64,000 bases of DNA from Escherichia coli (lineage in GTDB: Bacteria; Pseudomonadota; Gammaproteobacteria; Enterobacterales; Enterobacteriaceae), in NCBI RefSeq assembly GCF_013122565.1, contig NZ_CP053258.1. One strand, given 5' to 3'. Under the pieces are notes generated by a model. It had not been told where the DNA came from and did not search any database. It saw nothing but the letters and a program-made list of their open reading frames with translations. The position numbers and the translations under genes are program-made. This document shows positions 8,390-50,711 of the stretch, in pieces (position 1 is the first letter of the stretch; each line of letters begins with the position of its first letter).

Positions 8390-8572
8390 ATGACCGAACA
8401 TCGTGGCGGTGCAGGTAATTTCGCTGAAGATCGACAAAAAGCTTCTGACGCAGGTCGTAAAGGTGGCCAACAAAGTGGTGGTAATTTTAAAAACGATCCA
8501 CAAAGAGCATCAGAAGCAGGGAAAAAAGGTGGTCAGAATAGCCATGGCGGCGGTCGTAAATCTGACTCTTAA
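8390..8572 (+). CDS. yciG: YciG/YmdF-like KGG-repeat general stress protein
   Basis: 60 aa, repeated GG..K...A.EAG.KGGQ motifs (RKGGQQSGGNF, KKGGQNSHGGGRK); preceded by 560 bp of AT-rich non-coding DNA; RBS GGAGAA. Confidence 0.8.
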   Translation: MTEHRGGAGNFAEDRQKASDAGRKGGQQSGGNFKNDPQRASEAGKKGGQNSHGGGRKSDS

Positions 8573-8645
8573 TTTTTCATCTCCCTAAATTCGTGAATAA
8601 CTGCAGCTAACTGCGAGCCTACGGGCTCGCAGGGACAACTCTGGA

Positions 8646-9152
8646 GTGATTATGCAAATTAAATCTGTTGAAGATATCTTCATCCATTTATTATCTGACA
8701 CATATAGTGCTGAGAAACAACTAACCAAGGCACTATCTAAACTTACTCGCTCCGCATATAGTGATAAATTAACCGCTGCTTTTCAGTCACATCTTGATGA
8801 GACACATGGTCAAATTGAACGCATCGACCAGGTTGTTGATTCTGAAGATGGTATTAAACTAAAAAGAATTAAGTGCGCCGCAATGGAAGGCCTTATTGAA
8901 GAGGCGAATGAGGTAATTGAAAGCACTGACAAAAATGAAATACGTGATGCTGCGTTGATTGCAGCAGCACAAAAAGTAGAACACTATGAAATTGCCAGTT
9001 ATGGCACCCTGGTAACACTTGCTGAGCAATTAGGATTTAAAAAAGCGGCTCAACTCCTGAAAGAAACTCTGGAAGAGGAAAAAGCTACTGATGTCAAATT
9101 AACAGACCTGGCATTTAATAATGTTAATAAAAAAGCTCAGGATAACTCCTGA
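8646..9152 (+). CDS. yciF: YciF-like DUF892 ferritin-like stress protein
   Basis: 168 aa; paralogous to the next gene; operon order yciG-yciF-yciE as in the known yciGFE(-katN) stress operon. Confidence 0.8.
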   Translation: MIMQIKSVEDIFIHLLSDTYSAEKQLTKALSKLTRSAYSDKLTAAFQSHLDETHGQIERIDQVVDSEDGIKLKRIKCAAMEGLIEEANEVIESTDKNEIRDAALIAAAQKVEHYEIASYGTLVTLAEQLGFKKAAQLLKETLEEEKATDVKLTDLAFNNVNKKAQDNS

Positions 9153-9186
9153 ACTATAGACTTCACTTTTTTAGGAGAAATATATT

Positions 9187-9693
9187 ATGAATAGCATTGA
9201 ACATTATCATGACTGGCTTCGTGACGCACACGCAATGGAGAAACAAGCGGAATCAATGTTGGAGTCTATGGCCAGCAGGATAGAAAACTATCCTGAGTTA
9301 CGTTCCAGAATTGAGCAGCACATTAGCGAAACAAAGAACCAGCTTTCACAGCTTGAAAGCATACTTGATCGTAATAATATTTCTCGCTCTGTCATTAAAG
9401 ACTCTATGAGTAAAATGGCCGCGTTTGGGCAATCTATTGGTGGAATTTTTCCATCTGATGAAATTGTCAAAGGTTCGATCAGTGGCTATGTTTTTGAACA
9501 ATTTGAAATTGCGTGCTACACATCTCTTCTCGCAGCAGCCAAAAATGCGGGTGATACAGCTTCAGTACCAATTATTGAAGCAATTCTTAATGAAGAAAAA
9601 CAAATGGCTGAATGGCTTCTTAACCATATTCCAGACACCACTGAGCAGTTTATGGTCAGATCTGAAATTGATGGCGCTGAAGCAAAAAAATAA
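9187..9693 (+). CDS. yciE: YciE-like DUF892 ferritin-like stress protein
   Basis: 168 aa, MNSIEHYHDWLRDAHAMEKQAESMLESMASRIENYPEL...; tight spacing to flanking genes. Confidence 0.8.
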   Translation: MNSIEHYHDWLRDAHAMEKQAESMLESMASRIENYPELRSRIEQHISETKNQLSQLESILDRNNISRSVIKDSMSKMAAFGQSIGGIFPSDEIVKGSISGYVFEQFEIACYTSLLAAAKNAGDTASVPIIEAILNEEKQMAEWLLNHIPDTTEQFMVRSEIDGAEAKK

Positions 9694-9711
9694 TTCTTTA
9701 GAGGAGGAATT

Positions 9712-10602
9712 ATGTTTAGACACGTGAAAAAACTTCAATATACAGTACGTGTAAGTGAACCAAACCCAGGCTTAGCTAATCTACTTTTAGAACAATTCGG
9801 CGGCCCACAGGGTGAGCTTGCAGCTGCATGCCGATACTTCACTCAAGGTTTAAGTGATGAAGATGCAGGTCGAAGGGATATGCTGATGGACATAGCAACA
9901 GAAGAACTAAGCCATCTCGAAATTATTGGTTCTCTTGTTGGTATGCTCAACAAAGGTGCAAAAGGAGCACTCGCTGAAGGAACTGAGAATGAAGCGGAGC
10001 TTTACCGTTCCTTAACTCAAAATGGCAATGACAGCCATATAACTTCTCTTCTCTACGGAGGAGGCCCAGCATTAACTAATTCAGCTGGAGTACCCTGGAC
10101 TGCAGCTTATGTTGATACTATTGGCGAAGTCACAGCCGATCTTCGTTCAAATATTGCAGCTGAAGCTCGTGCAAAGATCATTTACGAGCGTCTCATTAAT
10201 GTTACTGATGATCCTGGAGTGAAAGACACTCTGGCATTTTTAATGACCAGGGAAGCAGCACATATGCTTTCTTTTGAAAAAGCATTACATTCAATTCGTA
10301 ACACTTTTCCACCAGGAAAATTACCACCGATTGAGAAGTACAAAAACGTATATTACAACATGTCAGAAGGTGAAGATGTCAGAGGTAGTTGGAACAGTGA
10401 TGAAAACTTTGATTATGTTTCCGATCCAGTTCCAGCTGTTGACGGTGGGGATGGGAAGGCCTCGATAATTCTTTCGACCAAGCAAGAAGCTATGATAAAA
10501 GCTATGGCAACAAGGTTGAAATCCCATGAAGATATCAATCCTGTCACTGGCGCTGAGCTTGCTGAAGGAGAGCCACAAACAAAGGTAAATAGTAAAAACT
10601 AA
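9712..10602 (+). CDS. Manganese (non-haem) catalase, KatN-like
   Basis: 296 aa, ferritin-like di-metal fold with EELSHLEIIG and REAAH motifs typical of Mn catalases; fourth gene of a yciGFE-katN-type arrangement (known from Salmonella). Confidence 0.8.
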   Translation: MFRHVKKLQYTVRVSEPNPGLANLLLEQFGGPQGELAAACRYFTQGLSDEDAGRRDMLMDIATEELSHLEIIGSLVGMLNKGAKGALAEGTENEAELYRSLTQNGNDSHITSLLYGGGPALTNSAGVPWTAAYVDTIGEVTADLRSNIAAEARAKIIYERLINVTDDPGVKDTLAFLMTREAAHMLSFEKALHSIRNTFPPGKLPPIEKYKNVYYNMSEGEDVRGSWNSDENFDYVSDPVPAVDGGDGKASIILSTKQEAMIKAMATRLKSHEDINPVTGAELAEGEPQTKVNSKN

Positions 10603-34449: not shown

Positions 34450-34683
34450 GTGGGTTATCTGCCCAACCGCAGCGACACGCCGGTGATCAAAATCAGCGCC
34501 AAATGGCTGAGAGAAGCGGGATTTGCGATCGGCACGGGCGTTACCGTGAGGATCTCGGAAGGCTGCCTGATCCTGCTTGCGGATAACAACGAAGTACAGG
34601 AACTGCGCAGGGAACTTTATCAGGTTAAACAGTCAGTTAAGGGGATGCGTGACGGGATGTTTAGTGTGCTGAACGAGAGTTAA
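34450..34683 (+). CDS. SymE-like (AbrB/SpoVT-fold) toxin-family protein, short form (77 aa, GTG start); possibly an N-terminally shortened remnant
   Basis: PVIKISAKWLREAGFAIGTGVTVRISEGCLILLADN resembles the core of K-12 SymE ([34 protein letters not shown], from memory); followed by an imperfect hairpin at 34690-34725. Confidence 0.5.
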   Translation: MGYLPNRSDTPVIKISAKWLREAGFAIGTGVTVRISEGCLILLADNNEVQELRRELYQVKQSVKGMRDGMFSVLNES

Positions 34684-34729: not shown

Positions 34730-35179
34730 TTAATGCTTCAAGGGGAATGACTTCATCAGTAATTCTTCTAAAGAAGAATATAAAAATTCCATTTCATAAG
34801 AGTCATGCAGAAAAACAAATATCTTACCATCTGTATTCATAAGAATAGGGTTTCCGCAGCCATCATCTGAAATAGCATAAAATGAATTCAATATATTTTT
34901 ATCAAGATCTTTATATATTTCCCTAAACTTCAGAGTAAGATCAACTACAGAAGCCTTTCCTACTAAGGAACCATTTTTAAAGGCATGTATAGCTATGCCA
35001 CCAAAGGCCCCACCAAATTTCTTAATAAACTCAATATATTGTATATTGAATTTAATATTTAATATTTTTTCAGCCTGAATGATCTCCTCATCAGAAGCTG
35101 GTATACCATATAGGACCATATCTTGGTCAGATGTTATCTCATCTCTGACTCTTGCTAGCAATTCTTCATTCATACGCAA
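34730..35179 (-). CDS. Predicted immunity protein for orphan toxin 4 (SMI1/KNR4, SUKH-like)
   Basis: 149 aa, AT-rich, directly downstream of an rhs C-terminal toxin module; IQYIEFIKKFGGAFGG motif typical of SUKH immunity proteins. Confidence 0.6.
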   Translation of the reverse strand: MRMNEELLARVRDEITSDQDMVLYGIPASDEEIIQAEKILNIKFNIQYIEFIKKFGGAFGGIAIHAFKNGSLVGKASVVDLTLKFREIYKDLDKNILNSFYAISDDGCGNPILMNTDGKIFVFLHDSYEMEFLYSSLEELLMKSFPLKH

Positions 35180-36297
35180 CCGCCCCCTCTATTGCTTAAA
35201 ACTTTTTCAGCTTGTGATTTCCAGAATTCTTTTTTCCACAGGTTAAATTCTTGACGATTATTTATACCTGAACCTTTTTTATTTCCATTTGGGTGCTGAC
35301 CAGCGTTATTTGTACTTGAACCATGATGTTTATCTGGCATAGCAGTAATTGGCCCTTGTGATTGCTGCCTGTCATGGTGCAATACTATTACATTCCCTTG
35401 CCTATCGCTCGGAGATAAACCAAATGGATGAGGAGCATCATCACTGTTCATAAAAATAATTCTATTAAGCTCGGAATCACTTAAGTGACTTAAATCCGTG
35501 TAACCTGATACATCTAAAGTTAATCCTCTGCTATCAGTAAAAGTAACAGTTAAACCCAGAGGATCGATCCAACTTATTGGATTAGGCGCATATTGGTATA
35601 AGTTTATCCCACCCGCCAGCCCTATCGGGTCCTGACTGATAAACCTCCCGCACTCCGGCGCATAATACCTGAACAGATTGTAATGCAGTCCCGTCTCTTC
35701 ATCATAATACTGCCCCGGCAGCCGCAGCGGTTGCTCAAAGTACGCCCCGCTGTTGCTGATGTCGCCCCGGTTTTCACCAAATCCCGCCTGATAGCCCGCC
35801 CACACCAGCGTCCCGTCCGCCGCGGTCACCTCCTGTACCGTGCCCGTCAGGTCCGTGTGGTAATACCAGATTTTTTGACTCTCTCCGCGCCCGGTGATGG
35901 CGGCCACCGGCGTGTACGGCTGTTCCGCGTCGTACAGGTATGTCCGCTTTCCCTGCCACGTTGTCTCCTGCAACAGCCGGAACCCTTCCCACACAAACGT
36001 TGTCCGGCTTCGTTCTCCCCGGTCGGTATGGAGATTGCTGGTCGCCTTGCTGATGCGCCTGCCCAGCGCATCATACTGATACCGCGTCTCGCTGTTGCTG
36101 CTGATGACCCGCGTTAACTGACCCTGCGCGTTCCACTCCAGCTGTTGGTCCCTGCGCTCTGTCAGTTCGCCCCATTCGTTATAGCGGTAACGGTCACGCC
36201 CGTAGCCCGGCAGGCGGTTATCCGGCACCGCTCCCTGATGCTCATCCGTCAGCAGGTTGCCCGCTTTGTCGTAATAATAATGGTCATGGTCGTACAT
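35170..36297 (-). CDS. Orphan rhs C-terminal toxin module 4: 5'-truncated Rhs core (to DPLGL) plus LHH/HNH-like nuclease-type tip
   Basis: Rhs core homology from about 36345 down to the DPxGL motif, then a divergent ~125-aa tip containing VIVLHHDRQ...KHHG...N...H (HNH/LHH-like). Confidence 0.65.
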   Translation of the reverse strand: MYDHDHYYYDKAGNLLTDEHQGAVPDNRLPGYGRDRYRYNEWGELTERRDQQLEWNAQGQLTRVISSNSETRYQYDALGRRISKATSNLHTDRGERSRTTFVWEGFRLLQETTWQGKRTYLYDAEQPYTPVAAITGRGESQKIWYYHTDLTGTVQEVTAADGTLVWAGYQAGFGENRGDISNSGAYFEQPLRLPGQYYDEETGLHYNLFRYYAPECGRFISQDPIGLAGGINLYQYAPNPISWIDPLGLTVTFTDSRGLTLDVSGYTDLSHLSDSELNRIIFMNSDDAPHPFGLSPSDRQGNVIVLHHDRQQSQGPITAMPDKHHGSSTNNAGQHPNGNKKGSGINNRQEFNLWKKEFWKSQAEKVLSNRGGGCV

Positions 36298-36376: not shown

Positions 36377-36682
36377 TTAGGAAAAGAGATTTATAGCTTT
36401 CTCTTGAAGTTCTATACCTATATCCTCAAGTTTGATCAGCTCGTCCTTACTGTACATTCCCTCCCGAAAAGAAAACATTCCATATACATCCATTAGTGCC
36501 AATCCTAAAACTTTTGGAACCATAATTTCATCAGCATATATTTCCGCCAAAAAATCCAGCGCCTTATATAATTCTTCAATTTCATTATCAAAAAAATCTT
36601 TCTTGAGTCTTAATCTAACAGGTATTGAATCATCTCCTAATAATTTATCGACCACTATTTTCAATGCAATCTCTTTATCCAT
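36377..36682 (-). CDS. Predicted immunity protein for orphan toxin 3
   Basis: 101 aa, AT-rich, immediately downstream of orphan module 3. Confidence 0.55.
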   Translation of the reverse strand: MDKEIALKIVVDKLLGDDSIPVRLRLKKDFFDNEIEELYKALDFLAEIYADEIMVPKVLGLALMDVYGMFSFREGMYSKDELIKLEDIGIELQEKAINLFS

Positions 36683-36698
36683 ATATCATTTCCTGTCT

Positions 36699-38315
36699 TT
36701 AACAAGATCTAATAGCATTTGATGGGACATGGCCTTCCACAAGTACTTCTCCAGAACTAACTGCATAGTTACGGGCTGGTCCTTTTAATCCAGCATCCGT
36801 TGCTTTCTCTACCGTGGATAAGTCAATAATATTCCGATTACCTTTAACATCAGGAATAACATCGTCAGTATCAAATGTAACTGTAGTTTGGCCTGGTTCA
36901 CGGTATCGTACTGCTACATATTCATTTACGGTAGTTGAAATGAATTGTGAGCCTTTAAACGAATCATTACTACCATTTCTAACATGACCAGCAGCGCTCA
37001 TTCCTCGCCCCGGGTTCTTTGCAGATAGCCCCTCACTAATAGATTCATCCGCACGAATATTTCGAAATACCTTGATTAAGCCAAGAGGATCAATCCAGCT
37101 AATCGGATTCGGCGCATACCTGTAAAGATTCAGACCGCCACGGATCGAAATCGGATCCTGACTGATAAACCTCCCGCACTCCGGCGCATAATACCTGAAC
37201 AGATTGTAATGCAGCCCCGTCTCTTCATCATAATACTGCCCCGGCAGCCGCAGTGGTTGCTCAAAGTACGCCCCGCTGTTGCTGATGTCGCCCCGGTTTT
37301 CGCCAAATCCCGCCTGGTAGCCCGCCCACACCAGCGTCCCGTCCGGCGCGGTCACCTCCTGTACCGTGCCCGTCAGGTCCGTGTGGTAATACCAGATTTT
37401 TTGACTCTCTCCGCGCCCCGTGATGGCTGCCACCGGCGTGTACGGCTGTTCCGCGTCGTACAGGTATGTCCGCTTCCCCTGCCACGTTGTCTCCTGTAAC
37501 AGCCGGAACCCTTCCCACACAAACGTCGTCTGCCGCTGTTCCCTCTGGTCCGTATGGCGGCCATATGTCGCCTTGCTGATGCGCCTGCCCAGCGCATCAT
37601 ACTGATACCGCGTCTCGCTGTTGCTGCTGATGACCCGCGTTAACTGGCCCTGCGCGTTCCACTCCAGTTGCTGGTCCCTGCGCTCTGTCAGTTCGCCCCA
37701 TTCGTTATAGCGGTAGCGGTCACGCCCGTAGCCCGGCAGGCGGTTATCCGGCACCGCTCCCTGATGCTCATCCGTCAGCAGATTGCCCGCTTTGTCGTAA
37801 TAATAATGGTCATGGTCGTACATCTGACCCGTGCGACTGGTCAGCCAGCCGCTGCGGTCATAGCTGAACACCAGGCAACCGCGCAGTTTGTCATTGATGC
37901 CGCCGACTTCACCGTCTGCGTTCCAGATATAATCCCGCGCTGTCACGCTGTCTTTCTGCGCCGGGGGGTTACCGGCCTGCTGCGGATTCTGGCTGCCGCC
38001 TGGCAGGCTGCGCTGCCAGCTTAACCGGTTATCGGCGTTGTAGCCGCTGAACGTCGCCAGTTTCCCCTGGGTGCGCATCACCTGACGGTGCAGGCTGTCA
38101 CGCTCATATTCACTGACCGTGATACCGTCCAGTGCCGTCTGGAGCAGATGCCCGCTGCCGTAGTAAAGATGGCTGAGATGCTGCCCGTCCGGCAGGGTAA
38201 TGCCGGTGGGATTGCCCAGCGCGTCACGCTGATATTTTATGCTGCCGTGCACGCTGTGCTCTGCCGTCAGCCAGCCGCTGCGGTCATACGCAAAACGCAC
38301 CGTGTCCGCCTGCAA
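36699..38315 (-). CDS. Orphan rhs C-terminal toxin module 3: 5'-truncated Rhs core plus unique ~125-aa tip (possible ADP-ribosyltransferase-like R/STT motifs)
   Basis: Starts inside the rhs core ([17 protein letters not shown]...), ends DPLGL + IKVFRNIRADESISEGL...GSQFISTTVNEY.... Confidence 0.65.
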   Translation of the reverse strand: MQADTVRFAYDRSGWLTAEHSVHGSIKYQRDALGNPTGITLPDGQHLSHLYYGSGHLLQTALDGITVSEYERDSLHRQVMRTQGKLATFSGYNADNRLSWQRSLPGGSQNPQQAGNPPAQKDSVTARDYIWNADGEVGGINDKLRGCLVFSYDRSGWLTSRTGQMYDHDHYYYDKAGNLLTDEHQGAVPDNRLPGYGRDRYRYNEWGELTERRDQQLEWNAQGQLTRVISSNSETRYQYDALGRRISKATYGRHTDQREQRQTTFVWEGFRLLQETTWQGKRTYLYDAEQPYTPVAAITGRGESQKIWYYHTDLTGTVQEVTAPDGTLVWAGYQAGFGENRGDISNSGAYFEQPLRLPGQYYDEETGLHYNLFRYYAPECGRFISQDPISIRGGLNLYRYAPNPISWIDPLGLIKVFRNIRADESISEGLSAKNPGRGMSAAGHVRNGSNDSFKGSQFISTTVNEYVAVRYREPGQTTVTFDTDDVIPDVKGNRNIIDLSTVEKATDAGLKGPARNYAVSSGEVLVEGHVPSNAIRSC

Positions 38316-38488
38316 CTAGCTGTTCAGATGGTGAATTTAACTACACCTTCTGGTTATCACCGTATTCAAGTGCCGCGATGCAACTACTGGGAAACTACAC
38401 TCATTCTCTTATTATTTTTAGAAATTTTCATCTATTAAATAATACACATGACCGATATTATTTAACCCTGCTGGGTATAACTGAAAAA

Positions 38489-39340
38489 TTATTTATTTTT
38501 AATTAAATTCATTAAATCCCAAACATTGCTATCATAATGATTGAAACCTTGAATCACAAGATAAGACAATGCTTTCATATCCAACAAAAATCTGATTTTC
38601 CCGTCTATAATTTTTGTATTTTCCGTTATAAACAATCGTTCCAATTTAACAAGATTACTTATTTTAGCTACGCTTGGAATATCACCCATTTTTGAAAAAG
38701 ATATTTTTTTAATTGAAGGTAATTTACTTACATCTTCAATGATTGACACTGCCATTTTTTTGCATAAAGATAAAGACACTTCTTCTATATTTTTCAAACC
38801 ATCTAAAAAAGTCGTGTCCGAAGCCTTAGATAATCCAGATAACTTGATGCTCCTTAAAGTCTTGATAGATGATAAATTAGGGATTGTTTGAATATTGCTA
38901 TTTTTTATCTCTAATGATTGCAAGAATGATCTCCCCGCAACATGCTCTTTTTTTTCTTTAAAATCTATCAATGTTATTTTTTCCAGAGTTCTGTGATTAA
39001 ACAAATTATCAATTCCATTTCGACCTATTAATACAGCCTCTTTTAAAAATGGGAAATATGATAAATCAAGTCTCATTTTATCATCATTCAAAAGATGGAT
39101 GAGTTGTATTTTTTTCAACGAATACAGTTGTGATATATCCTTTATTTTATTGCCTGTGATATATATTTCATTAATGAAATTAATTTCATCAAGAAATGAT
39201 AAATCAGTTATAAGCGGTGACAAAACCAACCCGTTAACTTTCTTTTCCTTCATCGTGTCAACAATATGACTTGTATCGTCATGCTTTTCATACACAAGGA
39301 CACGACTTCCCCGTACACCATAATTTTCCACTAGTCTCAT
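38489..39340 (-). CDS. Leucine-rich-repeat protein (283 aa), positioned as the immunity gene of orphan toxin 2
   Basis: AT-rich; repeated L..L..L.L..N.I LRR-like units (LSFLDEINFINEIYITGNKIKDISQLYSLKKIQLIHLLND..., IQTIPNLSSIKTLRSIKLSGL); 20 bp downstream of orphan module 2. Confidence 0.55.
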   Translation of the reverse strand: MRLVENYGVRGSRVLVYEKHDDTSHIVDTMKEKKVNGLVLSPLITDLSFLDEINFINEIYITGNKIKDISQLYSLKKIQLIHLLNDDKMRLDLSYFPFLKEAVLIGRNGIDNLFNHRTLEKITLIDFKEKKEHVAGRSFLQSLEIKNSNIQTIPNLSSIKTLRSIKLSGLSKASDTTFLDGLKNIEEVSLSLCKKMAVSIIEDVSKLPSIKKISFSKMGDIPSVAKISNLVKLERLFITENTKIIDGKIRFLLDMKALSYLVIQGFNHYDSNVWDLMNLIKNK

Positions 39341-39359
39341 ATATTTCCCCTTAAATAAA

Positions 39360-40820
39360 TCAACACTCCCCCTTCACTCTAAAATCTTGATCTGAAACAT
39401 TTCCTGTATTTGGTGGTCGTTTTTCATTACTGGTTACTCCTCTTCCTCCATTTTTAGCTATTTTCATTGCCTCTAAATTATTTAGCCATTGTTTACTAAT
39501 TCCAGCATATTTATCAAAATTCAACGAATCCAACATTGCCTGAGTTAACTTTCCACTTCGGGCATGTTGCAACATTCTCTGATATAGATTTTTTGTTTGA
39601 CCTGCATACATTTTACCCGCACCTTCATCAAAAAACTCATAAATTGCTTGCCCTTTATATTTTGCAGTAACATCTCTTATTTGTTCTAAAAAATCACTAG
39701 CGAGTCTTACTAATCCCCAAGGATCAATCCACCTCAGCGGATTCGGCGCATACCTGTAAAGATTCAGCCCACCCCGGATCGAAATCGGGTCCTGGCTTAT
39801 GAACCTTCCGCACTCCGGCGCATAATACCTGAACAGATTGTAATGCAGCCCCGTCTCTTCATCATAATACTGCCCCGGCAGCCGCAGCGGTTGCTCAAAG
39901 TACGCCCCGCTGTTGCTGATGTCGCCCCGATTTTCTCCAAATCCCGCCTGGTAGCCCGCCCACACCAGCCTCCCGTCCGGCGCGGTCACCTCCTGTACCG
40001 TGCCCGTCAGGTCCGTGTGGTAATACCAGATTTTTTGACTCTCTCCGCGCCCGGTGATGGCCGCCACTGGCGTGTACGGCTGTTCCGCGTCGTACAGGTA
40101 TGTCCGCTTTCCCTGCCACGTTGTCTCCTGCAACAGCCGGAACCCTTCCCACACAAACGTCGTCCGCCGCTGTTCCCTCTGGACCGTATGGCGGCCATAT
40201 GTCGCCTTGCTGATGCGCCTGCCCAGCGCATCATACTGATACCGCGTCTCGCTGTTGCTGCTGATGACCCGCGTTAACTGGCCCTGCGCGTTCCACTCCA
40301 GTTGCTGGTCCCTGCGCTCTGTCAGTTCGCCCCATTCGTTATAGCGGTAACGGTCACGCCCGTAGCCCGGCAGGCGGTTATCCATCACCGCGCTCTGATA
40401 CTCGTCCGTCAGCAGATTGCCCGCTTTGTCGTAATAATAATGGTCATGGTCGTACATCTGCCCCGTGCGGCTGGTCAGCCAGCCGCTGCGGTCATACGCA
40501 AAGCGCACCGTGTCCGCCTGCATGTGGTGCAGCCGTTCCCCTTCTTTCGTCGGGGTGAGCGTCACTTCCGTTATCTGGTCAAGACGGTTGTAGCTGAAGG
40601 TCCGTGTACTGTGCTGCGTGTCACTGCGCAACAGGCGGCCCAGCGCATCACGCTCCTGCCGCTCATTACGCCCCCCGCCTTCTGTACCCTGCGTCTGGAT
40701 GATGACCGGATACCCGCCCGCATTCAGCGCCAAATGGCTGAGAGAAGCGGGATTTGAGATCGGCACGGGCGTTACCGTGAAGATCTCGGAGGGATGTCTG
40801 ATCCTGCTTGCGGATAACAA
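39360..40820 (-). CDS. Orphan rhs C-terminal toxin module 2: 5'-truncated Rhs core with an internal deletion, plus GIY-YIG nuclease-like tip
   Basis: Core homology starts at ...[14 protein letters not shown] (40727); lacks ~130 codons between the two YDRSGWLT repeats; after DPWGL the tip reads AIYEFFDEGAGKMYAGQTKNLYQRMLQH (GIY...YIG...R...H pattern). Confidence 0.65.
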   Translation of the reverse strand: MLSASRIRHPSEIFTVTPVPISNPASLSHLALNAGGYPVIIQTQGTEGGGRNERQERDALGRLLRSDTQHSTRTFSYNRLDQITEVTLTPTKEGERLHHMQADTVRFAYDRSGWLTSRTGQMYDHDHYYYDKAGNLLTDEYQSAVMDNRLPGYGRDRYRYNEWGELTERRDQQLEWNAQGQLTRVISSNSETRYQYDALGRRISKATYGRHTVQREQRRTTFVWEGFRLLQETTWQGKRTYLYDAEQPYTPVAAITGRGESQKIWYYHTDLTGTVQEVTAPDGRLVWAGYQAGFGENRGDISNSGAYFEQPLRLPGQYYDEETGLHYNLFRYYAPECGRFISQDPISIRGGLNLYRYAPNPLRWIDPWGLVRLASDFLEQIRDVTAKYKGQAIYEFFDEGAGKMYAGQTKNLYQRMLQHARSGKLTQAMLDSLNFDKYAGISKQWLNNLEAMKIAKNGGRGVTSNEKRPPNTGNVSDQDFRVKGEC

Positions 40821-40914
40821 CGAAGTACAGGAACTGCGCAGGGAGCTTTATCAGGTTAAACAGGCAGTTAAGGGGATGCGGGACGGGATGTTTAGTGTGC
40901 TGAACGAAAGTTAA
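40728..40914 (+). pseudogene. SymE-like gene, 5'-truncated copy (3' ~190 bp plus hairpin duplicated from 34497-34725)
   Basis: ...SAKWLREAGFEIGTGVTVKISEGCLILLADNNEVQELRRELYQVKQAVKGMRDGMFSVLNES nearly identical to the 34450 copy; upstream part of the track ORF is antisense rhs sequence; perfect hairpin at 40923-40955. Confidence 0.55.
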
Positions 40915-41473: not shown

Positions 41474-43312
41474 TTAAAAAATAACAGTATCAAACTTCCC
41501 AGAGTATATAAACTGGTTCAATGCCCGGTAATATGCTTCCCTACTGGCAACAGGAACATTTGCGGCATCAAACATTCGTTCAGTAAGATCTTTCATTTCT
41601 CTGCTACTTACTGTTGTCCAATCCACTTTCCCACCAACTCTTCTTCCGGTTTTCTGCTCTAACCAATCTCTATATACTTTTTTTGTTGCAGCATGATTAG
41701 CCTCGGATAATGCAATTGTTGGTGACTTTGAAGGATATTTCCCTCCATAAGATGGCACATTCTTAGACATCCAAATATCAAGCACACCATGATGGTTTTC
41801 TAAAGAGGAATTAATTGGTCGATAAGGAACAACATCAAACTCTTTAACTTCACCGCACTTAAGTCCAAGGGGATCTATCCACCCCAGCGGATTCGGCGCA
41901 TAAGCATACTGGTTCAGCCCACCCGCCAGCCCTATCGGGTCCTGGCTTACGAACCGCCCGCACTCCGGCGCATAATACCTGAACAGATTATAGTGCAGCC
42001 CCGTCTCTTCATCATAATACTGCCCCGGCAGCCGCAGCGGCTGTTCAAAGTACGCCCCGCTGTTGCTGATATCGCCCCGGTTTTCGCCAAATCCCGCCTG
42101 GTAGCCCGCCCACACCAGCGTCCCGTCCGCCGCGGTCACCTCCTGTACCGTGCCCGTCAGGTCCGTGTGGTAATACCAGATTTTTTGACTCTCTCCGCGC
42201 CCCGTGATGGCGGCCACCGGCGTGTACGGCTGTTCCGCGTCGTACAGGTATGTCCGCTTTCCCTGCCACGTTGTCTCCTGCAACAGCCGGAACCCTTCCC
42301 ACACAAACGTTGTCCGGCTTCGTTCTCCCCGGTCCGTATGGCGGCCATATGTCGCCTTGCTGATGCGCCTGCCCAGCGCATCATACTGATACCGCGTCTC
42401 GCTGTTGCTGCTGATGACCCGCGTTAACTGGCCCTGCGCGTTCCACTCCAGCTGCTGGTCCCTGCGCTCTGTCAGTTCGCCCCATTCGTTATAGCGGTAG
42501 CGGTCACGCCCGTAGCCCGGCAGGCGGTTATCCATCACCGCTCCCTGATATTCATCCGTCAGCAGGTTGCCCGCTTTATCGTAATAATAATGGTCATGGT
42601 CATACATCTGCCCCGTGCGGCTGGTCAGCCAGCCGCTGCGGTCATAGCTGAACACCAGGCAACCGCGCAGTTTGTCATTGATGCCGCCGACTTCACCGTC
42701 TGCGTTCCAGATATAGTCCCGCGCTGTCACGCTGTCGCTGTGTGACGGGGGTGTGGCTGTCTGCTGTGGGTTCTGGCTGCCGCCTGGCAGGCTGCGCTGC
42801 CAGCTTAACCGGTTGTCGGCGTTGTAGCCGCTGAACGTCGCCAGTTTCCCCTGGGTGCGCATCACCTGACGGTGCAGACTGTCACGCTCATATTCACTGA
42901 CCGTGATACCGTCCAGTGCCGTCTGGAGCAGATGTCCGCTGCCGTAGTAAAGATGGCTGAGGTGCTGCCCGTTCGGTAACGTGATGTCGGTGGGATTGCC
43001 CAGCGCGTCACGCTGATATTTTATGCTGCCGTGCACGCTGTGCTCTGCCGTCAGCCACCCGCTGCGGTCATACGCAAAGCGCACCGTGTCCGCCTGCATG
43101 TGGTGCAGCCGTTCCCCTTCTTTCGTCGGGGTGAGCGTCACTTCCGTTATCTGGTCAAGACGGTTGTAGCTGAAGGTCCGTGTACTGTGCTGCGTGTCAC
43201 TGCGCAACAGGCGGCCCAGCGCATCACGCTCCTGTCGCTCATTACGCACCCCGCCTTCTGTACCCTGCGTCTGGATGATGACCGGATACCCGCCCGCATT
43301 CAGCACAAACAT
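41474..43312 (-). CDS. Orphan rhs C-terminal toxin module 1: 5'-truncated Rhs core (~1.6 kb retained, homology up to ~43468) plus unique ~130-aa tip
   Basis: Core identical in register to the main rhs from ...[12 protein letters not shown] to DPLGL; tip KCGEVKEFDVVPYRPINSSLENHHGVLDIWMSK... (possible xHH nuclease-like motif, weak). Confidence 0.65.
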   Translation of the reverse strand: MFVLNAGGYPVIIQTQGTEGGVRNERQERDALGRLLRSDTQHSTRTFSYNRLDQITEVTLTPTKEGERLHHMQADTVRFAYDRSGWLTAEHSVHGSIKYQRDALGNPTDITLPNGQHLSHLYYGSGHLLQTALDGITVSEYERDSLHRQVMRTQGKLATFSGYNADNRLSWQRSLPGGSQNPQQTATPPSHSDSVTARDYIWNADGEVGGINDKLRGCLVFSYDRSGWLTSRTGQMYDHDHYYYDKAGNLLTDEYQGAVMDNRLPGYGRDRYRYNEWGELTERRDQQLEWNAQGQLTRVISSNSETRYQYDALGRRISKATYGRHTDRGERSRTTFVWEGFRLLQETTWQGKRTYLYDAEQPYTPVAAITGRGESQKIWYYHTDLTGTVQEVTAADGTLVWAGYQAGFGENRGDISNSGAYFEQPLRLPGQYYDEETGLHYNLFRYYAPECGRFVSQDPIGLAGGLNQYAYAPNPLGWIDPLGLKCGEVKEFDVVPYRPINSSLENHHGVLDIWMSKNVPSYGGKYPSKSPTIALSEANHAATKKVYRDWLEQKTGRRVGGKVDWTTVSSREMKDLTERMFDAANVPVASREAYYRALNQFIYSGKFDTVIF

Positions 43313-43517: not shown

Positions 43518-48474
<4,957 letters not shown>

Positions 48475-48497: not shown

Positions 48498-50711
48498 TTA
48501 TTCAGAAACGTCCGGGGTAGGTAACGGGGCAATATCATCCGCAGTCATGGCTGTGCCGCCATCCGGATTCATATCAATGCCACTGCCAATGAGTTGCATA
48601 ACATCGCTGGTGTGCAGTAAAAGTTGTTTTCCGCAAAACTCAATCGAGCCATCCTTGTGTAATACAAGCGCTGCATTGCCGCAACGAAGGGTAAATTGAT
48701 CGCCAACATCCAGACGATATGTCGTTCCGACATTGATGGTTTGAGCCAGTTTGACGGAAAGACCATCATTTTTTGTGATGGTGGCATTACGGTCTTCTCC
48801 CACGCTGATGGTTTCATTTTTGACAATGGTTTTTATGCGATCGACCATGACCGTGTGGGTTTCATTGTTTTTTACCGTGGTATTGAGGTCTTTTTCCGCA
48901 TGGAACTTCACCTCTTCTGCCCCCGTTTTATCGTCAAAGCGCAGCATGTTTCCGTTGGTCGGCCCGCCATACAGCGAGTGGCTGAATATCCCGCTCTGCG
49001 AGGCCATACCCGGCAGTCCCCACGGCGGCATGGTGTCCTGGTTATAGGTGCGCCCTACAATGATCGGTAAATCCGGGTCGCCGTTTTTGAAATCCACCAG
49101 CACTTCCTGACCGATGCGCGGGATCTGGATCATGCCGAATCCTTTCCCTGCCCACGGATAGCTGACGCGGATCCAGCAGGAGCTGTTTTCGTCATTATTA
49201 CCGTAACGATCCCAGCCAAACTGCACCTTCACCCGTCCATATTTGTCCGTCCAGATTTCCTGCCCCGCCGGGCCGGTGACGATGGCGCTCTGCGGGCCTT
49301 TGGTGTGGGGTTTGCTCAGGGTTCGCTGTGGGCGGTAAACTTCGCTGGTTGGGTGCAGTTCAAACGTGGTGACATAGGTAAAATGCTGATCCTGGCCGCT
49401 GTGCTGCGCATTGTCCCGTAAAAACAGCGTGGTCTGTACCAGCAGGTATTCCTGATTAATTTCTGCCGTCGGGTGATTCATCAATGTAAAGGTGTACCCG
49501 GTCATGAGGGTACGGATATGACCGGCCCCATGTGCCCGGCTGCCTGGGCTACGCTGCGCTTCCATACGAATACGCGTCAACATCTCGCCTTCGCCCGTAG
49601 TGAAGTAATCACCAGGCCATTCGTAATGCTCGTATTCAGCATGACCGGTATCACGCGGACTGGCCACGGTACTTTTAAGCAGCGAACGAGGCTTCATAAA
49701 ATCAAAATCGTCCATCACCCACTTTCCAGTACGCAGCCTCTCACTGGCCGTAATGGTGTGAATAAATTCCTTATCCAGTTTCAGCCCTTCCTGGTGCCAC
49801 TCCACCAGTGGCGAGTCAGGGCACGCTTTATGACCATTGATGGCATCCGCCAGCACCAGCGTGTGGCTGTTCTCGCTGTGCTCAAACCACCAGTAAATTC
49901 CCCACTCCTGCATCAGGCGCTGGATGAAATCAAAATCCGTTTCACCGTACTGTACCTGCCAGGCACGAGGTGGATAATTTTCCACCAGCCGTTTTTCCAC
50001 CGGAAAGGAATATTCATCCAGTACTTCATCGAGAATATCCACCACGGTTTTATTCTGGAACGCTTTGTAGTCGCTGGTGTGGGTCAGCAGTTTCAGCCAC
50101 GGTTCAATGCGTAATTCATACGTTACCGAGCGGCCCTCATGGCCCACCACCCGCGCCGCTGTCACCAGCCCGCTGATATGCCGTTTGCCGCCGCCGTCCA
50201 GTTCGATATTGACGCACAGATCTTTGCCCACCATGGGCTGAAGCGGCAGGTTAGCAGCGGGGGAAACGTACCCCAGGTTCAGGGCGTCCGGCGTTTTAAG
50301 CTGTACTGTGTAGGAAAACAGATTCCCAAGCCCTTCCGAACCATTCATGCCTGCAAACAAAAGCATCTGCGGCGGCACCGCACTACCACTTACTGTGACG
50401 TTATGCGCCCCCGGACCACCTGCAGCAAGCGACGCCGCCGCATCCTGAACTGCACCAGCCATATCCGATATCCCTGCTGCGGCGGCTGCGGCTTGCGCAG
50501 CAGCTACTGCGGCTTTAACCAGACCTGACGGTTCCGGCAACGCACCAAACAGGTCCGCCGCTGCCTGTTCTACCATCTGCTCGGCTGCATCAGCTACATC
50601 GGTTGCGGCTGAACCAGGGCTTATACCACCACTTTCGCCAGCTATTGGTGGTGTGGTGATGACGGGTCCACCGTTTCCAACTGGTTTATTACCCGTAGAT
50701 ACAAAACTCAT
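48498..50711 (-). CDS. vgrG: T6SS spike protein VgrG (737 aa as the longest ORF, includes a ~100-aa Ala/Gly-rich N-terminal extension; true start uncertain)
   Basis: gp27/gp5-like VgrG body ([25 protein letters not shown]..., C-terminal ...[19 protein letters not shown]...); N-terminal [22 protein letters not shown]...[10 protein letters not shown] segment precedes the conserved start of the VgrG fold. Confidence 0.85.

What the first reader, a model, noticed from the sequence alone, without database searches (positions are those of the whole stretch)
39360..39730. GIY-YIG nuclease-like motif in the tip of orphan Rhs toxin 2
After DPWGL the tip reads ...AIYEFFDEGAGKMYAGQTKNLYQRMLQH..., matching the GIY-(10-11)-YIG-...-R-...-H arrangement of GIY-YIG endonucleases. 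This predicts a DNase toxin.
Basis: partly seen in the sequence, partly recalled or inferred. Interest (0 to 1): 0.5.

Follow-up and report, generated by a model that had tools for sequence, protein, structure and literature searches.

The report
GIY-YIG nuclease tip on orphan Rhs
The end of this silent spare Rhs toxin gene in E. coli very probably encodes a small DNA-cutting (GIY-YIG) toxin, with a leucine-rich-repeat antidote gene next to it; this is an ordinary, untested member of a known class of bacterial warfare toxins.

Summary

**The toxin tip**
- The minus-strand ORF 39360-40820 is a truncated "orphan" Rhs gene.
- After PLRWIDPWGL it ends in a 116-aa, AT-rich tip.
- The tip carries AIY-x10-YAG-x7-R-x3-H. 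An invariant Glu and Asn lie further downstream.
- Pfam matches GIY-YIG weakly (E about 1e-4).
- A family profile compared with an I-TevI family profile gives 96% probability (E 2.6e-9).

**The immunity gene**
- The 283-aa LRR ORF (38489-39340) starts 19 nt downstream, behind a ribosome-binding site.
- Homologous LRR genes follow homologous tips in Acinetobacter, Xenorhabdus and two metagenome contigs.

**Deployment**
- In other E. coli the same tip and LRR module ends a full-length prePAAR-PAAR-Rhs gene next to VgrG.
- It is therefore a T6SS effector/immunity pair that sits in reserve position in this window.

**Novelty**
- NCBI already names fragments of this tip "GIY-YIG nuclease family protein".
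- Rhs-GIY-YIG effectors and LRR immunity proteins are both described.
- Nuclease activity and protection by the LRR protein are untested.
- Interest is low.

The parts
39360..40820 (-). Orphan Rhs ORF (486 codons from a TTG). It has no PAAR domain and lacks most of the Rhs shell. Its first ~31 codons are antisense to a SymE-like gene and are not Rhs sequence.
   Evidence: ORF list. NCBIfam RHS_core, Rhs_assc_core and YD repeat hits only in the C-terminal part. No Shine-Dalgarno sequence is visible before the TTG.
39711..40728 (-). Retained GC-rich Rhs core (60% GC), with an internal deletion of about 400 nt relative to the main rhs. Window 39715-40496 is 95.4% identical to main rhs 44261-45043, which makes it a substrate for homologous recombination.
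   Evidence: blastn within the window; GC content.
39711..39740 (-). PLRWIDPWGL, the PxxxxDPxGL boundary motif that ends the Rhs core and marks the autoproteolytic release site of the toxin.
   Evidence: Translation. The role of the motif is taken from established knowledge of Rhs and Tc proteins.
39360..39710 (-). 116-aa toxin tip plus stop codon (35% GC).
   Evidence: Homologues.
39417..39647 (-). GIY-YIG catalytic core (tip residues 22-98). Codons: Y24 39639-39641, Y35 39606-39608, G37 39600-39602, R45 39576-39578, H49 39564-39566, E80 39471-39473, N95 39426-39428. The family-specific S52-G-K54-L55 motif is at 39546-39557.
39346..39352 (-). AAGGGGA, a Shine-Dalgarno-like sequence 5 nt before the ATG of the LRR gene, inside the 19-nt spacer (39341-39359).
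   Evidence: Read directly from the sequence.
38489..39340 (-). 283-aa leucine-rich-repeat protein (29% GC), the predicted cognate immunity protein.
   Evidence: Pfam LRR_14 3.3e-4. The model has pLDDT about 95 and matches Roco LRR, internalin A and SDS22. Homologous LRR genes (23-32% identity) follow homologous tips in L002, L004, L007 and L008. The same gene follows the full-length Rhs in L012 and L013.
44261..45043 (-). Segment of the main prePAAR-PAAR-Rhs gene (43871-48010) that is 95.4% identical to the orphan core. It is the likely crossover partner that would put the GIY-YIG tip onto the deliverable protein.
   Evidence: The mechanism comes from PMC3967940.

Best explanation
The tip is a small GIY-YIG-fold nuclease domain, the toxic cargo of a type VI secretion Rhs effector. 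The LRR protein encoded 19 nt downstream is its cognate immunity protein.

**Shown here**
- The tip has the motifs, the conserved residue set and the predicted fold of GIY-YIG nucleases.
- The tip and LRR pair is conserved across distant bacteria.
- In other E. coli the same 2.2-kb module ends a full-length prePAAR-PAAR-Rhs gene next to VgrG and a DcrB/Eag-type chaperone.

**Inferred from established knowledge of Rhs effectors and GIY-YIG enzymes**
- On a full-length Rhs, the tip is enclosed in the Rhs shell and cut free at the DPxGL site.
- It is carried on VgrG through the PAAR domain and fired into a neighbouring cell.
- There it cuts DNA using one Mg2+ held by Glu80, with Tyr24, Tyr35, Arg45 and His49 around the scissile phosphate and Asn95 in a structural role.
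- It has no separate DNA-binding domain, so the cutting is probably not sequence-specific. Death would follow from DNA damage.
- The LRR protein binds the tip and blocks it in cells that carry the gene.

**State in this window**
- The module is an orphan. It has no PAAR domain, no full shell and no evident translation start, so it is probably not delivered.
- It would serve as a spare cassette that can recombine into the main rhs through 782 nt of 95% identity. It would also be a source of immunity against kin that deploy this toxin.
For: **Motif and chance:**

**Sequence profiles**
- Pfam GIY-YIG i-E 1.9e-4 and 9.8e-5, and RE_Eco29kI 4e-3.
- NCBIfam group I intron endonuclease 2.3e-4.
- 5 of 7 relatives match PF01541, best 5.8e-7.

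**Family conservation**
- The 28-sequence alignment has Y, G, Y, G, R and E invariant, and H at 90% or more.
- In the 7-sequence set, Y24, Y35, G37, R45, H49, E80 and N95 are all invariant.

**Comparison with solved GIY-YIG enzymes**
- With the 28-sequence profile, all 13 PDB sequence hits at E<1 are GIY-YIG enzymes: UvrC, I-TevI, UPF0213, SLX1 and EndoII. With the 7-sequence profile, the 9 hits with E<1 are all GIY-YIG proteins.
- hhalign against the I-TevI family gives probability 96.2%, E 2.6e-9.
- The relaxed alignment places E80 on E75 and N95 on N90 of I-TevI.

**Structure**
- AlphaFold model: pLDDT 88.6, pTM 0.75, order alpha-beta-beta-alpha-alpha-beta-alpha.

**Immunity protein:**

**Deployable form**
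- P0197 (1367 aa) differs from the window tip by one residue.
- Gene order there is VgrG, DcrB, Rhs, 283-aa LRR.
- 2194 nt are 94.85% identical to the window.

**Precedents**
- N. cinerea Nte4, an Rhs with a GIY-YIG domain, is toxic in E. coli and is neutralised by Nti4 (PMC8263058).
- Orphan Rhs tips are activated by recombination (PMC3967940).
Against: - No activity data exist for this subfamily.
- The single-sequence Pfam score is borderline. The precomputed Pfam entry for the tip cluster is empty.
- Sequence profiles align confidently only over the N-terminal half. The Glu and Asn equivalence rests on a low-confidence relaxed alignment plus the fold match.
- Foldseek E-values are weak, 0.09-0.4.
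- The first motif is AIY, not GIY.
- The [RK]xxE signature of Tox-URI1 is not met (the tip has NNLE).
- The fused tip-linker-LRR model gave pTM 0.68 with no read-out of the interface, so binding is not shown.
- In the three complete E. coli genomes that carry the module, at least one gene of the pair has a premature stop: the LRR gene in all three, and the tip as well in HCP5S3_I2, with a Leu-to-Pro change in the GF3-3 tip. Orphan copies therefore decay.
- In Burkholderia aenigmatica the gene after a homologous tip is not an LRR gene.
Confidence: 0.82

Rival explanations
1. The tip has the GIY-YIG fold but is a dead relic in this strain. It is never translated or delivered, is on the way to becoming a pseudogene, and has no present function. 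Only the LRR gene, if anything, matters.
For: - It sits in orphan position with no PAAR domain, a partial shell, a TTG start with no ribosome-binding site, and 31 non-Rhs codons at the 5' end.
- The three complete E. coli genomes with this module carry premature stops in the LRR gene, and one also in the tip.
- The module is rare, 3 of 5426 complete genomes.
- LRR homologues occur alone, without a toxin.
Against: - Both ORFs are intact here, and every conserved catalytic residue is kept.
- The tip differs by one residue from the copy on a full-length Rhs.
- 782 nt of 95% identity to the main rhs keep it recombinable.
- Orphan rhs tips in Salmonella are functional and can be activated or expressed internally (PMC3967940, PMC7043789).
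Confidence: 0.12
2. The orphan pair acts inside the cell as a toxin-antitoxin-like growth regulator, expressed from promoters and start sites within the rhs ORF, and is not a delivered weapon.
For: This has been shown for the main and orphan rhs of Salmonella Typhimurium (PMC7043789). In-frame Met codons exist in the orphan core. Promoter-like hexamers lie within the tip and the LRR gene.
Against: Promoter-like sites are no more frequent than in shuffled sequence (7 found against 5.5 +/- 2.1). The same module is clearly a T6SS effector in other strains. There are no expression data.
Confidence: 0.08
3. The domain has the GIY-YIG fold but its lethal substrate is not bulk DNA. It could be RNA or a specific DNA structure, with the family-specific SGKL motif and the RPPNTG tail setting a new specificity.
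For: The SGKL motif is invariant or nearly so in the family. The I-TevI sequences aligned here lack it at the corresponding position. A conserved RPPNTG tail occurs only in the Rhs-linked subgroup. An LRR inhibitor recalls the ribonuclease inhibitor.
Against: From my own knowledge, the characterised GIY-YIG enzymes act on DNA. All structural neighbours found here are DNA enzymes.
Confidence: 0.07
4. The motif is a chance resemblance in a tip of unrelated fold.
For: The single-sequence Pfam and NCBIfam scores are below the curated cut-offs.
Confidence: 0.01

Closest known systems
Rhs/T6SS effectors with a C-terminal GIY-YIG nuclease domain: N. cinerea Nte4/Nti4 (PMC8263058); Salmonella SPI-6 PAAR-RhsA-GIY-YIG candidates (PMC10469887, PMC11669294); GIY-YIG Rhs tips in Dickeya and Stenotrophomonas surveys (10.1101/2025.05.08.652813, 10.64898/2026.07.13.738213)
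   Same: A PAAR-Rhs carrier, a tip directly after DPxGL, the GIY-YIG motif set, and an immunity gene immediately downstream. Nte4 is toxic in E. coli and is neutralised by Nti4.
   Different: Those tips reach the CDD or InterPro thresholds, whereas this one is borderline in Pfam. The Salmonella candidates are paired with a CdiI-like immunity gene, not an LRR gene. I could not retrieve those sequences to measure identity. Here the module is an orphan, not on the main gene.
Tox-URI1 and Tox-URI2, the URI (GIY-YIG) fold toxins of polymorphic toxin systems (Zhang et al. 2012, PMC3482391)
   Same: A URI-fold nuclease at the end of Rhs/T6SS toxins, with the signature Y, YxG, R, E, N.
   Different: The [RK]xxE element is absent in the window tip (NNLE). 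The listed immunity partners are Imm14, Imm26, Imm44 and Imm51, not LRR proteins. Pfam gave no Tox-URI2 hit.
Catalytic domains of I-TevI and UvrC (PDB 1ln0/1mk0, 1ycz/1yd6)
   Different: 15-23% identity. The tip has no linker or DNA-binding domain as in I-TevI, and no UvrB-binding or second nuclease domain as in UvrC. It has 13 fewer residues than I-TevI between the H and E regions. It carries the SGKL motif and the RPPNTG tail.
LRR immunity proteins of polymorphic toxin systems (Imm-LRR, PMC3482391); Stenotrophomonas LRR gene 314, predicted to block 'UvrC-like endonuclease' Rhs tips (10.64898/2026.07.13.738213)
   Same: A repeat-solenoid protein of about 280 aa encoded next to a nuclease toxin. 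The Stenotrophomonas case pairs an LRR protein with a UvrC-like (that is, GIY-YIG) Rhs tip by AlphaFold3 modelling.
   Different: Zhang et al. listed LRR immunity only next to T5SS toxins. None of these pairs, including this one, has been tested biochemically, as far as the papers I could search show.
Orphan rhs-CT/rhsI modules (Poole 2011, PMC3150448; Koskiniemi 2014, PMC3967940)
   Same: A truncated core, tip and immunity cassette lying downstream of the main rhs. It shares high-identity core sequence that allows replacement of the main tip.
   Different: None in principle. This locus has four such cassettes in a row.

Membership tests
GIY-YIG nuclease superfamily (Pfam PF01541) | GIY and YIG motifs separated by 10-11 residues on two adjacent beta strands | tested here: met
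   AIY-x10-YAG. Both Tyr and the Gly of YIG are invariant in 28 relatives. The motifs lie on strands 24-31 and 36-42 of the model. The first Gly is Ala in this copy.
GIY-YIG nuclease superfamily (Pfam PF01541) | Conserved Arg about 10 residues after the YIG Tyr, and His or Tyr 4 residues later, on the first helix | tested here: met
   R45 is invariant and H49 is kept in 90% or more of relatives. They align to R27 and H31 of I-TevI and to R39 and Y43 of UvrC.
GIY-YIG nuclease superfamily (Pfam PF01541) | Metal-binding Glu on the helix after the third strand, and a downstream Asn | tested here: met
   E80 is invariant in 28 of 28 relatives, and N95 in the 7 closest and in at least 70% overall. 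E80 lies on helix 76-89 after strand 67-71. The relaxed and global hhalign runs place E80 on E75 and N95 on N90 of I-TevI, with low per-column confidence.
GIY-YIG nuclease superfamily (Pfam PF01541) | Significant match to the family profile | tested here: met
   Single sequence: i-E 1.9e-4 and 9.8e-5, 22-23 bits, N-terminal half only, which is borderline. Family level: 5 of 7 members match, best 5.8e-7. PDB profile hits with E<1 are all GIY-YIG enzymes. hhalign gives 96.2%, E 2.6e-9.
GIY-YIG nuclease superfamily (Pfam PF01541) | Three-stranded sheet flanked by helices (the GIY-YIG fold) | tested here: met
GIY-YIG nuclease superfamily (Pfam PF01541) | Divalent-metal-dependent cleavage of DNA | not testable with these tools
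   Needs a nuclease assay.
Rhs C-terminal toxin with immunity protein, delivered by T6SS | Variable, AT-rich tip directly after the PxxxxDPxGL end of a GC-rich Rhs core | tested here: met
   PLRWIDPWGL at 39711-39740. GC is 60% in the core and 35% in the tip.
Rhs C-terminal toxin with immunity protein, delivered by T6SS | Small ORF immediately downstream that co-varies with the tip | tested here: met
   19-nt spacer with a Shine-Dalgarno-like sequence. Homologous LRR genes follow homologous tips in 4 of 5 other loci.
Rhs C-terminal toxin with immunity protein, delivered by T6SS | Carried by a full-length PAAR-Rhs next to VgrG | tested here: not met
   Not met in this window: the ORF lacks PAAR and most of the shell, so it is an orphan. 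Met for the same module in other E. coli, L012 and L013. I therefore file it as an orphan copy of such an effector.
Rhs C-terminal toxin with immunity protein, delivered by T6SS | Toxicity of the tip and specific neutralisation by the downstream protein | not testable with these tools
   The fused-chain AlphaFold run was uninformative on binding.
Tox-URI1 (Zhang et al. 2012) | Signature Y, YxG, R, [RK]xxE, N | tested here: inconclusive
   Y, YxG, R, E and N are present. [RK]xxE is not, since the window has NNLE, though many relatives have REIAE. No public profile of Tox-URI1 was available to test.
Tox-URI2 (which I recall as Pfam PF15653) | Match to the Tox-URI2 profile (signature Y, KxG, [EQ]) | tested here: not met
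   No Tox-URI2 hit at E<=10 in the Pfam scans of the tip or of its relatives.
LRR-type immunity protein (Imm-LRR) | Leucine-rich-repeat solenoid encoded next to a polymorphic toxin | tested here: met
   Pfam LRR_14 3.3e-4 plus several weaker LRR families. The model has pLDDT about 95 and matches Roco LRR (1e-8), InlA and SDS22. Position and synteny are as given above.

The most novel reading that the evidence does not exclude
This divergent GIY-YIG subfamily, marked by the invariant H-x2-SGKL motif and, in Rhs-linked members, an RPPNTG tail, might have a substrate preference not seen in other GIY-YIG enzymes. Its roughly 285-aa LRR partner might then be the first worked example of a bacterial LRR protein that inhibits a DNase by clamping it in its concave face. 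That would be a bacterial counterpart of the mammalian ribonuclease inhibitor. My evidence does not exclude this, but does not point to it either.
Probability: 0.15. Interest if true: 0.45.

Novelty: new member of a known kind. Interest (0 to 1): 0.22.

Why it matters
The finding adds one more predicted DNase to the E. coli T6SS arsenal. It also gives a clean, testable toxin/immunity pair.

- **Small, well-predicted toxin:** the domain is 116 aa and has a defined set of residues to mutate.
- **Unusual antidote:** the partner is a repeat-protein (LRR) rather than a small globular immunity protein.
- **Same cassette in two positions:** the identical module is found as the main effector in some strains, as an intact orphan here, and with premature stops in at least the LRR gene in three complete genomes. 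This makes the locus a convenient natural series for studying how Rhs cassettes are swapped in, kept in reserve and lost.

It does not change how these systems are understood.

Tried and rejected
- **Single-sequence PDB search:** it gave only chance hits to glucosamine-6-phosphate deaminase (E 0.7-1). The same family appears in NCBIfam at E 0.078. I treated these as noise.
- **Ntox47:** the Pfam hit (E 0.74) covers the Rhs core/tip junction and is noise.
- **Spurious hits in the library-wide search:** ten of its 17 hits (P0004, P0006-P0010, P0012, P0015, P0016, P0018) are long tandem-repeat proteins (...SGDVYAIAYRGPGNDGFLKTV...IDTLEFD...). They match through repetition, so I excluded them from all alignments.
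- **Species-representative genomes:** The scan with A6 found 105 pattern matches but no confirmed relative.
- **Plasmids and phages:** tblastn of the tip found nothing.
- **Profile alignment of the C-terminal half:** standard hhalign and HMMER alignments stop after the Arg/His helix. Only relaxed or global settings reach the Glu and Asn.
- **Fused tip-linker-LRR prediction:** I tried this as a substitute for a complex prediction. It gave pTM 0.68. The alignment was slightly contaminated at the junctions and there was no interface read-out, so I draw no conclusion on binding.
- **Promoter and terminator scan:** the counts did not exceed those in shuffled sequence.
Full report
**What is in the sequence**

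The minus strand of 39360-40820 holds a 486-codon ORF. NCBIfam recognises only Rhs core features in it. These are YD repeats and the RHS repeat-associated core domain, which ends at residue 370.

The translation of 39360-39740 reads PLRWIDPWGL, then a 116-residue tip: VRLASDFLEQIRDVTAKYKGQAIYEFFDEGAGKMYAGQTKNLYQRMLQHARSGKL...RPPNTGNVSDQDFRVKGEC, then a stop.

Composition changes at the boundary in the way typical of Rhs loci. GC is 60% in the core, 35% in the tip and 29% in the next gene.

A relaxed pattern for GIY-x9-12-YIG-x7-9-R-x3-[HY] occurs once in all six frames of the window, at this site. It never occurred in 400 shuffles.

**Context**

The window is E. coli. Its fadE is 98.2% identical to many strains, and the neighbouring genes dpaA, yafJ, lpcA, fadE, ivy and yafV are in the same order.

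Downstream of a T6SS cluster lie a VgrG gene (48498-50711) and a full-length PAAR-Rhs gene (43871-48010). Four truncated rhs cassettes follow: 41474-43312, 39360-40820, 36699-38315 and 35170-36297. Each has its own AT-rich tip and a small downstream ORF.

The cassette under study is the second of these. Three features mark it as an orphan:
- It lacks the PAAR domain and most of the shell.
- Its first ~31 codons are antisense to a SymE-like gene, not Rhs sequence.
- Its only possible start at the 5' end is a TTG with no ribosome-binding site.

**Is the tip a GIY-YIG domain?**

Single-sequence evidence is weak but all points the same way:
- Pfam GIY-YIG, i-E 1.9e-4 and 9.8e-5, 22-23 bits, covering the N-terminal half of the model.
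- Pfam RE_Eco29kI, a GIY-YIG restriction enzyme, 4e-3 to 6e-3.
- NCBIfam group I intron endonuclease, 2.3e-4, well below its cut-off.

A search of 1.84 billion representative proteins found 17 hits. Ten were tandem-repeat proteins that I rejected after reading them. The real relatives are few:
- Rhs tips at 30-44% identity.
- Short stand-alone or N-terminally extended proteins from metagenomes.

A profile search added about 50 more. Several carry a precomputed PF01541 hit or the NCBI name "GIY-YIG nuclease family protein".

In the 7-sequence alignment the invariant columns are Y24, F26, Y35, G37, R45, H49, S52, K54, L55, E80, G88 and N95. In the 28-sequence alignment the two Tyr, two Gly, the Arg and the Glu stay invariant. 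His and G-K-L are kept in at least 90% of sequences. This is the catalytic set of GIY-YIG enzymes.

Profiles built from these alignments find only GIY-YIG proteins among PDB sequences with E<1: UvrC, I-TevI, BH0048, SLX1 and T4 EndoII.

I built a small I-TevI family alignment from phage genomes. My remembered I-TevI sequence matched phage T4 at 100%. Profile against profile, it scores 96.2% probability, E 2.6e-9.

That confident alignment covers only the GIY...YIG...R...H half. With relaxed or global settings it extends. It then places E80 on E75 and N95 on N90 of I-TevI, at low per-column confidence.

The AlphaFold model built on the 28-sequence alignment is confident (pLDDT 88.6, pTM 0.75). 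Its element order is helix, strand, strand, helix, short helix, strand, helix. The motifs sit on the elements where GIY-YIG enzymes have them.

Foldseek ranks the same proteins first but with weak E-values.

I conclude that the tip belongs to the GIY-YIG superfamily. It is a divergent subfamily with its own H-x2-SGKL motif and, in Rhs-linked members, an RPPNTG tail.

**The LRR gene**

ORF 38489-39340 starts 19 nt after the tip's stop codon. AAGGGGA lies 5 nt before its ATG.

It has weak hits to several Pfam LRR families (best LRR_14, 3.3e-4). Its model has pLDDT about 95. That model matches the Roco LRR domain, internalin A and SDS22.

The strongest argument that it is the antidote is comparative. 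Homologous tips are each followed by a homologous LRR gene at 23-32% identity to this one in:
- Acinetobacter bereziniae.
- Xenorhabdus indica.
- Two metagenome contigs.

The one exception is Burkholderia aenigmatica, where a 127-aa protein that is not an LRR protein follows the tip.

The LRR family has about 45 close members, mostly 280-295 aa long. Some occur without a toxin. One lies next to a ydhQ-like gene and one in a run of small ORFs. Orphan immunity genes behave in this way.

My attempt to model the pair as one fused chain gave pTM 0.68 and no read-out of the interface. It says nothing either way about binding.

**Is it a real weapon?**

The 90%-identity cluster of the tip contains a 1367-aa E. 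coli protein, WP_407227926.1. It is a full-length prePAAR-PAAR-Rhs that ends in this tip with a single V-to-I change.

In two assemblies the gene order is VgrG, DcrB-family chaperone, this Rhs, then the 283-aa LRR gene after 19 nt. Other orphan cassettes follow. Window 38303-40496 aligns to that locus over 2194 nt at 94.85% identity.

So the cassette is the deployed effector in some strains and a spare in this one.

The orphan core shares 782 nt at 95.4% identity with the main rhs (44261-45043). Recombination across such homology replaced the main tip in evolved Salmonella (PMC3967940).

Among 5426 complete E. coli genomes only three carry the module. In all three it is damaged:
- The LRR gene has a premature stop in every case.
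- The tip has a premature stop before the catalytic Glu in HCP5S3_I2.
- The tip has a Leu-to-Pro change next to the catalytic Arg in GF3-3.

The copy in the window is intact in both genes.

**Mechanism**

The following are shown here:
- The motif set, the fold and the conserved pairing with the LRR gene.
- The position after DPxGL.
- The existence of a full-length carrier in other strains.

The following are inferred from what is established for Rhs effectors and GIY-YIG enzymes:
- Encapsulation of the tip in the Rhs shell and autoproteolytic release.
- PAAR/VgrG-mediated delivery into a neighbouring cell.
- One-metal phosphodiester hydrolysis, with Glu80 binding Mg2+ and the Tyr, Arg and His residues at the scissile phosphate.
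- Non-specific DNA damage.
- Blockade of the tip by the LRR protein.

In this strain the orphan is most likely silent as a toxin. Whether the LRR gene is expressed is unknown. The promoter scan was not above background.

**Comparison with what is known**

- URI/GIY-YIG toxins on Rhs and T6SS carriers were predicted in 2012, in the same paper that listed LRR proteins as an immunity class (PMC3482391).
- An Rhs effector with a GIY-YIG domain, N. cinerea Nte4, is toxic in E. coli and is neutralised by its partner (PMC8263058).
- Salmonella SPI-6 has PAAR-RhsA-GIY-YIG candidates (PMC10469887, PMC11669294).
- A 2026 preprint predicts that a Stenotrophomonas LRR protein blocks "UvrC-like endonuclease" Rhs tips (10.64898/2026.07.13.738213).
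- NCBI already names fragments of this exact tip "GIY-YIG nuclease family protein".

**Verdict**

The finding is a correct call on an untested but ordinary member of a known kind. Its modest points of interest are:
- The divergence of the subfamily.
- The LRR antidote.
- The natural series of deployed, spare and decayed copies.

Noticed in passing
window 43871-44257 (-), tip of the main PAAR-Rhs gene: After DPLGL, the main Rhs tip contains ...DMHAEIDAM...x26...CGFCKRS..., that is H-A-E followed by C-x-x-C (about 44027-44125). This is the zinc-binding signature of nucleic-acid deaminases. If real, the deployed toxin of this strain would be a deaminase. A sequence search of the PDB found nothing.
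   Followed up: partly
window 35170-35550 (-), tip of the fourth orphan; 34730-35179 (-), next ORF: The tip matches Pfam LHH (HNH/EndoVII nuclease) at 6.8e-10. In L012 an LHH orphan is followed by a SUKH/SMI1-KNR4 immunity gene. The 149-aa ORF downstream in the window was not scanned.
   Followed up: partly
window 36699-37076 (-), tip of the third orphan: Its only hit is a weak Pfam DUF7587 match (5.8e-4). Its function is unassigned. The 101-aa ORF 36377-36682 downstream has no NCBIfam hit.
   Followed up: partly
window 40618-40914 (+) and 34450-34683 (+): There are two SymE-like (type I toxin) ORFs; the one tested, 40618-40914, gives NCBIfam SymE 2.2e-8. One overlaps, in antisense, the 5' end of the orphan-2 ORF. 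The first 97 nt of the orphan-2 ORF (window 40724-40820) are 94.8% identical to window 34493-34589, within the second SymE-like ORF (34450-34683), beside yafV. SymE genes also sit between rhs cassettes in other E. coli. They may mark cassette boundaries.
   Followed up: partly
window 40474-40496 (-), inside the orphan-2 core: Orphan 2 lacks about 400 nt that are present in the main rhs and in orphans 1 and 3. The junction falls at the repeated peptide YDRSGWLT, which suggests a deletion by recombination between the two repeats.
   Followed up: partly
L001 (E. coli GF3-3) 8430-9666; L005 (E. coli HCP5S3_I2) 9001-10237: In the only complete E. coli genomes that carry this module it is damaged. 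The LRR gene has a premature stop in each. The tip has a stop before the catalytic Glu in HCP5S3_I2 and a Leu-to-Pro change next to the catalytic Arg in GF3-3. Only 80-150 nt of Rhs core remain.
   Followed up: yes
L009 6001-6867; L011 3529-4407: LRR homologues at 64% and 55% identity occur without any adjacent toxin. One lies next to a ydhQ-like AIDA-repeat gene near the ydhT-ydhX region, and one in a run of small unannotated ORFs. They may be orphan immunity genes.
   Followed up: partly
tip residues 49-55 (window 39546-39566) and 98-103 (39402-39419): The H-x2-S-G-K-L motif is invariant or nearly so across the whole subfamily. The RPPNTG tail is conserved in the Rhs-linked members. Neither has a counterpart in the I-TevI alignment, and neither is explained.
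   Followed up: no
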